From Phycisphaerales bacterium (GTDB lineage Bacteria > Planctomycetota > Phycisphaerae > UBA1845), in the NCBI GenBank assembly GCA_020344555.1, contig CP070827.1:4191419-4255418 (forward strand): 64,000 nt of DNA. The letters run 5' to 3'. The number at the start of each line of letters is the position of its first letter. Position 1 is the stretch's first letter. Positions 5,601 through 7,444 of this stretch are shown here, piece after piece. Under the pieces are notes generated by a model. It saw nothing but the letters and a program-made list of their open reading frames with translations. It had not been told where the DNA came from and searched no databases. The position numbers and the translations under genes are program-made.

Positions 5601-7444
5601 AGAGCCCTGTATACGTTCAGACGCCGCCCGGAAACCGTTCTACCGTACAGGCCCGGAAGGGGGTCACCGGTCCATATGAGCCTGCCTCTCAGCTCGGTTA
5701 GAGACATGTCCGGACTGTTAGCCAGCAACAGGGCGGCAGCTCCGGCGACATGGGGCGCCGCCATGGATGTCCCACTCTTGACACCATATGCTGTCTCGCC
5801 GGTATAGTCCGATCCGATGTAACCGACCAGGATGTTGTCGATTTCGGCTCCATAATAGTCGTTCCCGTCCGCGTCCGTCTGCCAACCGAAGCGGACGCGC
5901 ATGGCGGTATCACGATAGGGCTTAAAGTCAATCCTGAACCTCCAGTAGTATTCGGCCTGGTCGCTCTCAGAGAATCGAGCCGCCTCTTGCCAGAAAGTGC
6001 CGTTCCAGACCTCTACGATCAGAGCGTCCTCGTCGGTCTCCATCTCGAAGCGGCTTTCGAATGTAAGCGATAGACCACGCAGGTCGCTCGTGTCAAATGG
6101 CGGTGTTACGATCCACCCATCGGCGTTGGGCCGGTAGGGATAGGACTGCTCCGCATCGCCCCGGGCGGCAACGCTGCCCCAGACATTCTCGATGGTTCCC
6201 CAGTAGTTCGCGGGTCCACCCAGCGTGAACTGGTCACCGATGTCCGGCATGGTGACGGTCTGAAAGTCCTCGGAAAACAGGGCCGCAAACGGCGGCACCG
6301 TGCTTAGGACGAACGACCCGGGAGCACCCAGGTCAACCGATATGGCACCCCAATTTGAAAAGCTGGAAAGGGCGTCGTTGTGGTCTGTGCTGGCGACCGA
6401 GATCACGCTTTCGACGTCGTAGCTCGCCGGATAATGGGGAGCTACGTCATTGTCGACCGCGTCATTCCCGGCCGAAGCCACCAAGAGAACTCCGGCGTCG
6501 CGCGCCACGACAAGCACATCGAAGAATGTCTGATGGTAGCTGCTGCCCCCGGCGCTGAAGTTTATCACGCGGGCTCCGTGGTCGATCGCGTAGTAGATGG
6601 ACTCGACCGAGTCGCTGACCCGAGTTCACCTACCAGGCGAAATAAAGCGGAGGGCCATGATCCTGGCGGCCCAGTTGACACCCACCACACCGGTGGCGTT
6701 GTTCCCCACGGCGGCAATCGTGCCGGCTACGTGCGTACCATGACCCCTGGCATCCGAAGGATCCGGATCACGCAACCGGAAATCATACCCGTGGACATCG
6801 TCGATGTAGCCGTTGGCATCGTTGTCGATTCCGTCGGTTTCCTTCCCGTCTCCGCTCTCACCGGGATTGACCCACATGTTGGCTGCCAGATCCGGGTGCC
6901 CGTAGTCAACTCCCGTATCGATGACCGCCACGATGACGGTTTCTGAACCGGTGGTAATATCCCAGGCCTCCGGGGCGTCGATATCGGCATCATGCAGCCC
7001 GCCTTCTTGCCCGGTGTTGTGCAAGCCCCAGAGTTCGGCAAAGTCCGGGTCATCGGGAAAGGTATCGTCCAAACACACGATGCAATCCGGCTCGGCGTAA
7101 CGGACCCCGGGCATCGCGGAAATTTGCCGTGCGAGAGCCACGACGTCCGTTCCGGAGACCAGCTCCGCAATGTGAATCTGGTGGGGACCGTCCTCGTTCA
7201 GGTCGGTGGAACGAGAGCGTGATGCCGGCAAGAGTGTACGAAGGCGCTTAACTTTAGGAAGCGACTGTCGTGCCTGTGCCGCTGCCTCCTCGGACATCGG
7301 TTCGAAGCGTACGATGATGCGGTCCGGCGCGAAACGGGCCGGTTCGAAGAGGACAGGGTCTGGCGCGACCTCCGCAGCAGTCCCGGTCATCGTGAGTACC
7401 ACAACCGCTGGTGCGAGCCTTAGCGTCACCGCGCGCATCTTCAT
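2648..7444 (-). CDS. Giant secreted protein, paralog B. Order of parts: signal peptide, I9 propeptide, S8 peptidase with an inserted beta-sandwich, Ig-like region, about 15 parallel beta-helix repeats, Cys/Asp-rich DCNxNxxPDxCD repeats, shared C-terminal module. One in-frame TGA at 6626-6628.
   Basis: ORFs 6626..7576 and 2648..6568 share one frame (6626-6566=60). MKMRAVTLRLAP starts at 7444 after GGGGGAAC. VAVIDTGV and HGTHVAGT lie upstream of the TGA. SAGND and GTSMAAPHVAG (Ser codon about 5765-5767) lie downstream. Repeated N.F.GN.A..GGG units are present. Confidence 0.8.
6626..6628 (-). other. In-frame UGA inside the S8 domain of paralog B (candidate recoding or readthrough site)
   Basis: Reading is ..MALRFISPGR-TGA-TRVSDSVESIYYAIDHGARVINFSAGG.. 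It is followed by 1,325 open codons up to the TAG at 2648. Confidence 0.6.

What the first reader, a model, noticed from the sequence alone, without database searches (positions are those of the whole stretch)
6560..6660. Conserved in-frame UGA splits the catalytic triad of a 1,598-codon S8 surface protease: candidate recoding or readthrough
ORFs 6626..7576 and 2648..6568 are one reading frame interrupted only by the TGA at 6626-6628 (..ISPGR*TRVSDSVESIYYAIDHGARVINFSAGG..). The catalytic Asp and His lie upstream. The oxyanion Asn and the catalytic Ser (about 5765-5767) lie downstream. Termination here would therefore give a dead fragment. The following 1,325 codons are open and keep every expected motif. 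The tandem paralog has a UGA at the identical codon despite diverged flanks. TGA is a real stop in this genome: rplL, rplJ, secY, rplO, secE and rpoB all end on TGA, and rplL ends exactly at the canonical ..VTIK terminus. This is therefore not a reassigned code. The codon aligns with the variable residue of the G-x-G surface loop of subtilases, so any inserted residue might be tolerated. A hairpin GACUC-GGUC-GAGUC (6600-6613) begins 16 nt after the UGA. Possible explanations are selenocysteine, programmed leaky termination that tunes the protease dose, or an old nonsense allele kept alive by suppression.
Basis: partly seen in the sequence, partly recalled or inferred. Interest (0 to 1): 0.8.

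Follow-up and report, generated by a model that had tools for sequence, protein, structure and literature searches.

The report
Conserved in-frame UGA in subtilases
A whole family of giant secreted subtilisin-type proteases in Phycisphaerae bacteria carries a strictly conserved UGA stop codon in the middle of the catalytic domain that must be read through to make the enzyme. The most likely reading is that it inserts selenocysteine, which would make these the first natural selenium-containing subtilases.

Summary
Copy A (7444..2648, minus strand) and copy B (2374..&lt;1) each have one in-frame TGA at codon 273. It falls on the x of the G-x-G substrate-binding strand, equivalent to Ser101 of subtilisin BPN'.

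- **TGA is a normal stop here.** rpoB, secY, rplL and rplJ all end on it.
- **The stop is always TGA.** All 19 DNA instances from independent assemblies carry TGA, never TAA or TAG.
- **Conservation is deep.** Every relative at 72% identity or more has it. About 70 protein clusters in two diverged subfamilies end exactly at this site.
- **These are not pseudogenes or split genes.** The 1,000-1,370 codons downstream stay open with dN/dS of 0.17-0.32. The codons between the TGA and the first possible restart are under amino-acid-level selection.
- **There is an RNA-level constraint.** The 18 nt at +10..+27 are the most synonymously constrained stretch of the gene. They form a 5-bp hairpin with a GGUC loop, the same loop as the E. 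coli minimal SECIS.
- **A propeptide Cys tracks the UGA.** It occurs at P3/P4 only in UGA-bearing members.

Best explanation: selenocysteine insertion (about 0.5).

Evidence against it: no Cys homologue at the site among about 550 homologous sequences, a weak hairpin with no covariation, and Sec machinery that I could not check.

Main rival: SECIS-independent programmed readthrough.

The parts
2648..7444 (-). Copy A: a 1,598-codon pre-pro-subtilase gene. It encodes a signal peptide, a fervidolysin-type propeptide, an S8 catalytic domain with a large insert, an Ig-like domain, PMP/NosD-like beta-helix repeats and a Cys-rich C-terminal region. A single TGA interrupts it.
   Evidence: annotated in GenBank as two separate proteins (UCC29869.1 is the 272-aa N-terminal fragment)
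6626..6628 (-). In-frame UGA at codon 273, aligned to residue 101 of subtilisin BPN' (the x of G-x-G).
6600..6613 (-). 5-bp hairpin GACUC-GGUC-GAGUC, 12 nt after the UGA. The loop GGUC occupies nt 21-24 (U of UGA = 1). Candidate SECIS or recoding stimulator.
   Evidence: same loop as the E. coli 17-nt SECIS GGUUGCAGGUCUGCACC (PMC3834832)
6602..6619 (-). Codons +3..+8, which show no synonymous variation among 10 homologues. This is the lowest of 348 six-codon windows.
7073..7075 (-). Cys124 in the propeptide tail (EPDCIVC*LDD), predicted to be P3 or P4. Cys at this position is found only in UGA-bearing subtilases.
7082..7084 (-). Cys121, the first Cys of the CxxC in the propeptide tail. It is not conserved in all members.
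6917..6919 (-). Catalytic Asp (VIDTGVD), upstream of the UGA.
6740..6742 (-). Catalytic His (GHGTHVAG), upstream of the UGA.
6464..6466 (-). Oxyanion-hole Asn (SAGND), downstream of the UGA.
5765..5767 (-). Catalytic Ser (GTSMAAP), downstream of the UGA.
1..2374 (-). Copy B: a tandem paralogue (74% identical in the catalytic core), cut by the window edge.
   Evidence: UCC29867.1
1556..1558 (-). In-frame UGA of copy B, also at codon 273.
1530..1543 (-). Copy B hairpin cACUC-GGUC-GAGUc (4 bp plus a C-C mismatch).

Best explanation
These genes are functional pre-pro-subtilases whose synthesis requires in-frame decoding of a conserved UGA at residue 101 (BPN' numbering) on the substrate-binding strand. 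The most likely mechanism is bacterial selenocysteine insertion. A short hairpin with a GGUC loop lies 12 nt downstream in the window-type genes, and other G-loop hairpins lie 10-40 nt downstream in the diverged subfamily. It would recruit SelB carrying Sec-tRNA(Sec) to the UGA in competition with RF2. The selenol would sit on the strand that pairs with the P1-P4 residues of substrates and of the cleaved propeptide tail. In the window-type genes it would face a family-specific Cys at propeptide position P3 or P4. That could allow a selenenylsulfide link and redox-gated release of the inhibitory propeptide.

Shown: the UGA is conserved, it is read through in frame, the genes are under purifying selection, there is a nucleotide-level constraint just 3' of the UGA, and the propeptide Cys is associated with the UGA.

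Inferred: the inserted residue is Sec, the hairpin acts as a SECIS, and Sec and Cys are in contact.
For: 1. Conservation. There are 19 DNA instances in independent assemblies and all 19 carry TGA. All 15 N-terminal fragments closest to copy A (62-100% identity) end at the site, and at least 5 of them are on the same 5.25-Mb MAG contig. About 55 further clusters of the L002a-type subfamily (46-100% identity) end 37-38 residues after HGTH.

2. TGA is otherwise a true stop in this genome.

3. Not a pseudogene. dN/dS downstream is 0.17-0.32 with dS up to more than 1, and 999-1,369 codons stay open. A genuinely decayed paralogue lies next door at 7716-10065, with a frameshift, a truncation and a nonsense codon.

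4. Not a split gene. Codons +9..+19 keep their amino acids through synonymous changes, and no conserved start codon lies between the UGA and them.

5. RNA constraint. Codons +3..+8 are the least synonymously variable of 348 windows. Only 9 of 126 conserved columns with fourfold or higher degeneracy have an invariant codon, and two of these are +6 and +7.

6. The constrained stretch forms a hairpin that RNAalifold also finds. Its GGUC loop matches the E. coli minimal SECIS. Only 4 such 5-bp GGUC hairpins occur in the 128 kb of both strands of the window. Diverged members (L163, L002a, L170, L171, L172) have different hairpins with G at loop position 2, and these regions fold better than 86-100% of windows in the same genes. 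In L172 an insertion keeps the hairpin next to the UGA, while the protein helix is encoded by a distal copy.

7. Thiol partner. Cys at the propeptide P3/P4 position occurs in 25 of 70 truncated (UGA) proteins and in 0 of 227 homologues with a sense codon. P3/P4 was assigned from the mature N-termini of solved homologues.

8. Precedent. Sec has been predicted in secreted trypsin-like and MucD-like serine proteases of marine metagenomes (PMC2398784). Some Planctomycetes carry full Sec machinery (PMC4807772).
Against: - There is no Cys at the aligned position among about 550 sense-codon homologous sequences. Almost all accepted selenoproteins have Cys homologues (stated in PMC12013277). The sense-codon relatives nearest the L002a-type carry S, T or G.
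- The enzyme is a hydrolase, and residue 101 is not catalytic.
- The window-type hairpin is only 5 bp (about -5 kcal/mol). It shows no compensatory covariation, and the 48 nt after the UGA fold no better than average for the gene. Copy B has only 4 bp.
- Hairpin distance varies from 10 to 38 nt in the second subfamily.
- No Rfam SECIS family matched.
- I could not examine selA, selB, selC or selD in this MAG. Neither the window nor about 90 kb of related contigs holds a tRNA-Sec or another candidate selenoprotein gene.
- The propeptide Cys is absent from most of the second subfamily, where Tyr dominates.
Confidence: 0.5

Rival explanations
1. SECIS-independent programmed readthrough. The UGA would be decoded at some frequency by a near-cognate or dedicated tRNA (Trp, Gly, Arg, Cys or Ser, or a tRNA(UCA) suppressor or tRNA-ReC-like Cys system), helped by the local context and the downstream hairpin. 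Only a fraction of ribosomes would make the full-length protease, either to limit its dose or to tie it to growth state.
For: - Recoding itself is shown.
- There is no Cys homologue at the site among about 550 homologous sequences, and the position tolerates 17 different residues, including Trp (TGG in L005 and L044).
- The hairpin is small and energetically unremarkable.
- The -1 codon is GGG in 8 of 8 Gly cases, and the +1 nucleotide is G or A. This suggests a context effect around the stop.
- Sense-codon relatives have S, G or T.
Against: - If a standard residue were inserted, UGA-to-sense mutations would be neutral or beneficial. Yet none is seen among the window-type genes, down to 62% identity and dS > 1.
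- All 19 instances are TGA.
- To my knowledge, conserved non-Sec readthrough of cellular genes is essentially undocumented in bacteria.
- It does not explain why Cys appears at propeptide P3/P4 only in UGA-bearing members.
- The only tRNA-Trp in the window has a normal CCA anticodon.
Confidence: 0.3
2. Termination is the intended outcome. In this reading the 272-aa product (signal peptide, propeptide and half a catalytic domain) and a separately initiated C-terminal product are made as two polypeptides, or only the short product matters.
For: Gene callers annotate two ORFs everywhere. A GTG or ATG is present at codon +20 or +21 in the window-type genes.
Against: - Codons +6..+19 (SVESIYYAIDNGAR, helix C of the subtilase fold) are conserved at the amino-acid level with synonymous changes. 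No conserved start codon precedes them.
- The GTG/ATG at +20/+21 is simply the V-[IVM]-N motif, and no Shine-Dalgarno sequence is evident.
- Splitting would separate Asp/His from Asn/Ser and remove a core helix.
- The stop is always TGA, although TAG is the commonest stop in this genome.
Confidence: 0.08
3. Inactive pseudogenes: one nonsense mutation spread by duplication or gene conversion.
For: Tandem paralogues share the lesion. A truly decayed paralogue exists in the same locus.
Against: - dN/dS is 0.17-0.32 downstream of the stop, dS is up to more than 1, and there is no second stop or frameshift in 1,000-1,370 codons.
- The stop is retained in at least 70 clusters from many samples and at least 4 MAGs.
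- The real pseudogene at 7716-10065 shows what decay looks like here.
Confidence: 0.02
4. Reassigned genetic code (UGA = Trp or Gly) or a sequencing or assembly error.
For: None beyond the in-frame TGA itself.
Against: - TGA ends rpoB, secY, rplL (..VTIK*), rplJ and others, and is followed by intergenic sequence.
- The same TGA is seen in independent assemblies from NCBI, ENA, JGI and Logan.
Confidence: 0.01

Closest known systems
Bacterial selenoprotein genes (UGA plus an intragenic SECIS read by SelB/tRNA-Sec), e.g. E. coli fdhF
   Same: There is an in-frame UGA in a genome where UGA is a stop, conserved among orthologues. A hairpin begins 12 nt after the UGA (11 nt in fdhF, from my own knowledge). 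It has the same GGUC apical loop as the 17-nt minimal E. coli SECIS (PMC3834832). Nucleotide-level constraint overlaps the coding sequence.
   Different: There is no Cys homologue at the site. The host protein is a hydrolase, not an oxidoreductase. The stem is only 5 bp and lacks the bulged U of fdhF. The hairpin differs in sequence and distance in the second subfamily. The Sec machinery is unverified.
Predicted Sec-containing secreted serine proteases from the Global Ocean Sampling metagenomes (trypsin-like COG5640, and MucD-like with CxxU; Zhang and Gladyshev 2008, PMC2398784)
   Same: These are secreted serine proteases of marine microbes with an in-frame UGA away from the catalytic Ser, and a SECIS-like hairpin was predicted.
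   Different: Those belong to clan PA (S1), and the Sec replaces a conserved Cys (128 and 12 Cys homologues). Here the fold is S8 subtilase, the position is Ser or variable in homologues, and there is no Cys counterpart.
Programmed UGA readthrough, e.g. phage Q-beta A1 protein (own knowledge)
   Same: UGA would be decoded in frame, extending a protein, possibly with only part of the ribosomes passing.
   Different: The known bacterial cases are viral, the short product is functional, and the extension is optional. Here the short product lacks half the catalytic domain, and the stop is conserved in a large cellular gene family.
Selenosubtilisin (semisynthetic; catalytic Ser221 converted to Sec; own knowledge)
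   Same: A subtilisin scaffold carrying selenocysteine.
   Different: It is artificial, the Sec is at the catalytic nucleophile, and the enzyme becomes a peroxidase or acyl transferase. Here the Sec would be natural and at residue 101 on the substrate-binding strand.
Cysteine-switch latency of matrix metalloproteinase zymogens (own knowledge)
   Same: In the proposed model, a propeptide Cys would hold the zymogen inactive until a redox or chemical trigger.
   Different: MMPs use Cys-Zn coordination. Here the proposed link is a Sec-Cys selenenylsulfide between the propeptide tail and the S3/S4 rim. It is entirely inferential and does not apply to most of the second subfamily.

Membership tests
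Bacterial selenoprotein gene | In-frame UGA conserved among orthologues or paralogues, with the ORF continuing under selection | tested here: met
   19 of 19 DNA instances are TGA. About 70 protein clusters are truncated at the site. dN/dS downstream is 0.17-0.32.
Bacterial selenoprotein gene | UGA is otherwise a stop codon in the genome (not a reassigned code) | tested here: met
   17 of about 50 ORFs end in TGA, including rpoB, secY, rplL and rplJ.
Bacterial selenoprotein gene | SECIS stem-loop immediately 3' of the UGA, with G in the apical loop about 16-37 nt from the UGA | tested here: inconclusive
   A 5-bp hairpin with a GGUC loop lies at nt 21-24 and its sequence is invariant. It shows no covariation, its energy is about -5 kcal/mol, and it is not unusual against the gene background. 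Diverged members have other G-loop hairpins at variable distance. No Rfam hit.
Bacterial selenoprotein gene | selA, selB, selC (tRNA-Sec) and selD present in the same genome | not testable with these tools
   The MAG is absent from the DNA look-up index, and the scan of genome contigs was already used. There is no tRNA-Sec or sel gene in the window or related contigs.
Bacterial selenoprotein gene | Cys-containing homologues at the Sec position (a prediction heuristic, not a mechanistic requirement) | tested here: not met
   0 Cys among 209, about 85, 48 and 209 aligned sense-codon sequences. S, Y, G, F, T, A and W occur instead.
Bacterial selenoprotein gene | Sec in a redox context (a partner Cys nearby) | tested here: inconclusive
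   A propeptide Cys at P3/P4 occurs in 25 of 70 UGA members and 0 of 227 others. C-x-x-UGA or C-x-x-x-UGA occurs in a few (L001, P0130, P0131, P0250). No structure could be modelled.
Subtilase (peptidase S8) | Asp-His-Ser triad and oxyanion Asn in the canonical order and motifs, plus a match to the Pfam S8 profile | tested here: met
   D176, H235, N327 and S560. PF00082 matches both fragments and PF22148 matches the prodomain. The closest solved structure is deseasin MCP-01, 3VV3.
Programmed stop-codon readthrough (non-Sec) | In-frame extension required for function | tested here: met
Programmed stop-codon readthrough (non-Sec) | Measured leakiness, or a defined stimulatory element or near-cognate tRNA | not testable with these tools
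   This needs reporter assays or proteomics. Only context regularities were seen.
Pseudogene | Relaxed selection and accumulation of further disruptions | tested here: not met
   Contrast with the decayed remnant at 7716-10065.
Alternative genetic code (table 4 or 25) | UGA not used as a terminator | tested here: not met

The most novel reading that the evidence does not exclude
There are two novel readings, and either would be new.

(a) These are natural selenocysteine subtilases in which Sec101 on the substrate-binding strand forms a selenenylsulfide with a co-evolved Cys in the propeptide tail. This 'selenocysteine switch' would make activation of giant surface proteases redox-gated. The Sec would have arisen from Ser or Gly rather than from Cys.

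(b) The UGA is decoded without the Sec machinery. That would be the first large, anciently conserved family of programmed UGA readthrough in bacterial cellular genes.
Probability: 0.3. Interest if true: 0.85.

Novelty: new variant of a known kind. Interest (0 to 1): 0.7.

Why it matters
If Sec is inserted, this is a new selenoprotein family in a textbook hydrolase fold. It would be expanded to five or more paralogues per genome and would lack the Sec/Cys pair that homology-based selenoprotein finders rely on. Current pipelines would therefore miss it and annotate every member as two truncated 'S8 peptidases'. It would also tie selenium availability to extracellular proteolysis in marine and sediment Phycisphaerae.

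If Sec is not inserted, it is a rare case of conserved programmed readthrough in bacteria. Either way, the roughly 70 split gene models in public databases are mis-annotated.

Tried and rejected
- **Structure prediction.** I tried to model the read-through protein (Cys in place of the stop, 70-row alignment) to measure the distance from residue 101 to the propeptide Cys.
- **Other paralogues of the same MAG.** P0129 and P0132 are not in the DNA index.
- **Rfam.** The whole window at gathering thresholds gave only two tRNAs. The region at E up to 10 gave no SECIS family and one spurious snoRNA hit.
- **Single-sequence folding.** Z-scores ranged from +0.18 to -1.28 and were not significant.
- **JGI metagenome scan.** No close relative; the best was 61% identical with Val at the site.
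- **tRNA scans of related contigs.** None found.
- **Scan of about 150 kb for other TGA-split coding regions.** Only the subtilases and the pseudogene's TGG-to-TGA change turned up.

Considered and rejected on the sequence:
- **+1 or -1 frameshifting.** The frame is the same on both sides of the stop, and the +1 frame hits UAA at once in copy B.
- **Hopping from GGG to the GGN after the stop.** There is no landing codon in winA, L163 or L167.
- **Reinitiation at the overlapping GUG of G-GUG-A.** It is in the wrong frame.
- **TadA-type A-to-I editing.** There is no UACG loop motif.
- **A UCA-anticodon tRNA in the window.** The tRNA-Trp has anticodon CCA and a C11-G24 pair.
- **An alternative long-range stem UCGGUCG/CGAUCGA.** It is not conserved, because it depends on the variable third base of an Ala codon.
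Full report
**What is in the window.** On the minus strand, 7444..2648 is one reading frame of 1,598 codons with a single internal stop, TGA at 6626-6628 (codon 273). A tandem paralogue starts at 2374 and runs off the window. It has TGA at 1556-1558, again codon 273. The N-terminal 272 residues carry a signal-like peptide, a fervidolysin-type prodomain and positions 3-88 of the Pfam S8 profile. The downstream part resumes at profile position 99. Asp176 and His235 lie upstream of the stop; Asn327 and Ser560 (5765-5767) lie downstream. The window comes from a Phycisphaerales MAG with a 5.25-Mb contig, where the two halves are annotated as separate 'S8 family serine peptidases' (UCC29869.1, UCC29867.1). 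TGA is an ordinary terminator here. It ends 17 of about 50 confident ORFs, including rpoB, secY, rplJ and rplL (..VTIK*), and is followed by intergenic sequence. One detail needs correcting: the hairpin begins at nucleotide 16 counted from the U of UGA, which is 12 nt after the codon.

**How far the UGA is conserved.** A search with the N-terminal fragment returned 15 distinct relatives, 62-100% identical and 265-283 residues long. All of them end at exactly this position. At least five lie on the same MAG contig, so the genome holds five or more such genes. I recovered DNA for relatives from ENA, Logan and JGI assemblies and from two GTDB MAGs (Planctomycetota CSMAG_2921 and Phycisphaerae MFD13433). 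In the scan of reference genomes, every sequence at 72% identity or more to copy A has TGA at the site, and every sequence at 61% or less has a sense codon. A much more diverged paralogue, L002a (about 52% identical, without the large insert), also has TGA at G-*-G. A search with its N-terminal fragment found about 55 further clusters, 46-100% identical, that end 37-38 residues after the HGTH motif. One comes from a second complete Phycisphaerales MAG. DNA for four of these again shows TGA followed by 999-1,369 open codons. In total there are 19 DNA instances, about 15 of them distinct, and all 19 carry TGA. None carries TAA or TAG, although TAG is the commonest stop in this genome.

**Not a pseudogene, not a split gene, not another code.**
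- Pairwise dN/dS downstream of the stop is 0.17-0.32, with dS from 0.15 to more than 1. These values are similar to those upstream.
- The window itself holds a contrast. The stretch 7716-10065 is a 5'-truncated remnant of an L002a-type paralogue with a frameshift near 8402 and a TGG-to-TGA change at 8004-8006. That is what decay looks like in this genome.
- Codons +9..+19 after the UGA (S-I/L-Y-Y-A-I-D-N-G-A-R, helix C of the subtilase fold) keep their amino acids while their third positions vary.
- No conserved start codon lies between the UGA and this stretch. The first universal GTG or ATG is at +20/+21, inside the V-[IVM]-N motif.
- Ribosomes must therefore pass the UGA in frame. Frameshifting, hopping and reinitiation at the overlapping GUG do not fit the sequences (see Tried and rejected).

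**An RNA-level signal next to the UGA.** I built a codon alignment of ten window-type genes over 360 codons. Of 348 six-codon windows, the one with the lowest synonymous diversity is +3..+8 (ACC AGC GAC UCG GUC GAG), with zero diversity. Only 9 of 126 conserved columns with fourfold or higher degeneracy have a single codon, and two of those are +6 and +7. This stretch forms GACUC-GGUC-GAGUC (stem at nt 16-20 and 25-29, loop at 21-24), and RNAalifold predicts the same structure on its own. The only variation keeps pairing (A-U in 7 sequences, G-U in 3), apart from a C-C mismatch in copy B. Only four 5-bp GGUC hairpins occur in both strands of the 64-kb window. The loop is identical to that of the 17-nt minimal E. 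coli SECIS, GGUUGCAGGUCUGCACC (PMC3834832). From my own knowledge, the spacing of 12 nt compares with 11 nt in fdhF.

The caveats are substantial:
- There is no compensatory covariation.
- The hairpin is worth only about -5 kcal/mol.
- The 48 nt after the UGA fold no better than typical windows of the same genes, at the 45th to 84th percentile.
- Rfam gives nothing.

The diverged members have different hairpins:
- L163 has GGGCGC-UGGAG-GCGCUC at nt 17-33.
- The L002a-type genes have a GGAGG/CCUCC hairpin and a conserved CCAUC-N5-GAUGG hairpin. The second loop base is always G.
- These regions are more stable than 86-100% of control windows. However, their distance from the UGA varies from 10 to 38 nt.
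- In L172, a 26-residue insertion after the UGA looks like a duplication. The copy beside the UGA keeps the hairpin (CCCAUC-CGGGG-GAUGGG) but encodes a loop-like DEPIRGMG. The distal copy encodes the real helix (TSGIIGAFEY) and has lost the hairpin. This suggests the hairpin is kept for its own sake, but it rests on a single case.

**Which residue?** The classical test for Sec fails. There is no Cys at the aligned position among about 550 homologous sequences. Ser dominates, 16 other residues occur, and Trp (TGG) occurs in L005 and L044. A different thiol signal does exist. The window-type genes all have Cys in the propeptide tail, EPD-x-x-x-C-[LIV]-D-[DE]. Ordinary relatives have H, R, T, Y or S there. 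Taking both subfamilies together, Cys occupies this position in 25 of 70 UGA-truncated proteins and in 0 of 227 sense-codon homologues. These counts are not phylogenetically independent, but the Cys recurs in scattered L002a-type lineages.

The mature N-termini of solved homologues (deseasin 3VV3 and others) align to residues 127-128. That makes this Cys P3 or P4 of the autoprocessing site. From established knowledge of subtilisin-substrate complexes, P1-P4 pair as an antiparallel strand with residues 100-104. This puts P3/P4 next to residue 101. A few members also have Cys three or four residues before the UGA (C-G-G-UGA in L001; C-A-R-G-UGA in P0130 and P0131). These patterns are what one would expect if the inserted residue is Sec, or Cys. 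They are unexplained if it is Trp, Gly or Arg. Most L002a-type members, however, have Tyr at P3/P4. A Sec-Cys link therefore cannot be the general role.

**Weighing the explanations.** Recoding of the UGA is, in my judgement, about 0.9 certain. For its mechanism I put selenocysteine insertion at about 0.5.

In favour of Sec:
- It is the only well-established reason for a bacterial cellular gene family to keep an in-frame UGA over this much divergence.
- The stop is invariably UGA.
- The constrained GGUC hairpin sits at the right place.
- The Cys association fits.
- Sec has been predicted before in secreted serine proteases of marine metagenomes (PMC2398784).
- Some Planctomycetes have full Sec machinery (PMC4807772).

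Against Sec:
- There is no Cys homologue.
- The enzyme has no redox function.
- The hairpin is weak and shows no covariation.
- I could not inspect the MAG for selA, selB, selC or selD.

SECIS-independent programmed readthrough, or a dedicated suppressor or Cys-recoding tRNA, gets about 0.3. A two-polypeptide or termination-only design gets about 0.08. Pseudogenes get about 0.02, and a reassigned code or sequencing error about 0.01.

**Relation to what is known.** No subtilase or other peptidase appears in the BSepDB database paper or the 2026 review of the prokaryotic selenoproteome, and none is among the new families reported in the deep-Sep paper. Full-text searches found no report of an in-frame UGA in S8 peptidases. 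The nearest precedents are the GOS trypsin-like and MucD-like candidates, where Sec replaces a conserved Cys. I therefore rate this as a new variant of a known kind of recoding. It may be a new selenoprotein family that homology-based (Sec/Cys pair) pipelines would miss by design. The immediate practical consequence is that roughly 70 public gene models are wrongly split in two.

Noticed in passing
window 7716-10065 (minus strand): This is a 5'-truncated remnant of an L002a-type paralogue, aligning to L002a residues 658-1465. It has a frameshift near 8402 and a TGG-to-TGA change at 8004-8006 (..TTSK*GDVV against ..TTSKWGDVV). It appears to be a genuinely decayed pseudogene beside the intact UGA genes. 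Alternatively, the UGA-for-Trp could hint at Trp-type readthrough in this organism.
   Followed up: partly
L172:10763-10900 (identical in L173:6561): There is a 26-residue insertion directly after the UGA. The proximal copy keeps the RNA hairpin CCCAUC-CGGGG-GAUGGG but encodes DEPIRGMG. The distal copy encodes the true helix TSGIIGAFEY without the hairpin. It looks like a duplication that separated the RNA role from the protein role.
   Followed up: partly
window 6629-6631 and the homologous codon in 10 relatives: The codon before the UGA is GGG in 8 of 8 Gly cases (AGG in two, AAG in P0122), although neighbouring Gly codons vary freely. L171 of the other subfamily has GGC. GGUGA is also complementary to the 3' end of 16S rRNA. 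The significance is unknown.
   Followed up: no
window 48481-48554 (minus strand): The tRNA-Trp has anticodon CCA and a Watson-Crick C11-G24 pair in the D stem. No UCA-anticodon or Sec tRNA lies in the window. tRNA-Thr(GGU) is at 50199-50271.
   Followed up: yes
window 12750-14780 (minus strand): A 676-aa radical SAM protein (PF04055) sits between the protease cluster and the rpoA/ribosomal protein operon.
   Followed up: no
window 59434-62037 (plus strand): An 867-aa protein carries a C-terminal Peptidase_S74 (endosialidase chaperone) domain and a UspA1-like repeat. It looks like a tail-fibre or adhesin-like surface protein.
   Followed up: no
window 51923-53899, 56044-58482 (plus strand), 62052-63368 (minus strand): Three long ORFs (658, 812 and 438 aa) have no Pfam match at E <= 0.001.
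   Followed up: no
L004:2747 onward: The Phycisphaerae MFD13433 orthologue has the TGA and also loses its frame about 640 codons later (..DIYLA*). This is either an assembly error or a real frameshift in that MAG.
   Followed up: no
L170:1321-9838: Two tandem L002a-type UGA subtilases (TGA at 2131 and 7109) follow an FHA-domain gene. Tandem arrays of UGA subtilases recur in L002, L170 and the window.
   Followed up: partly
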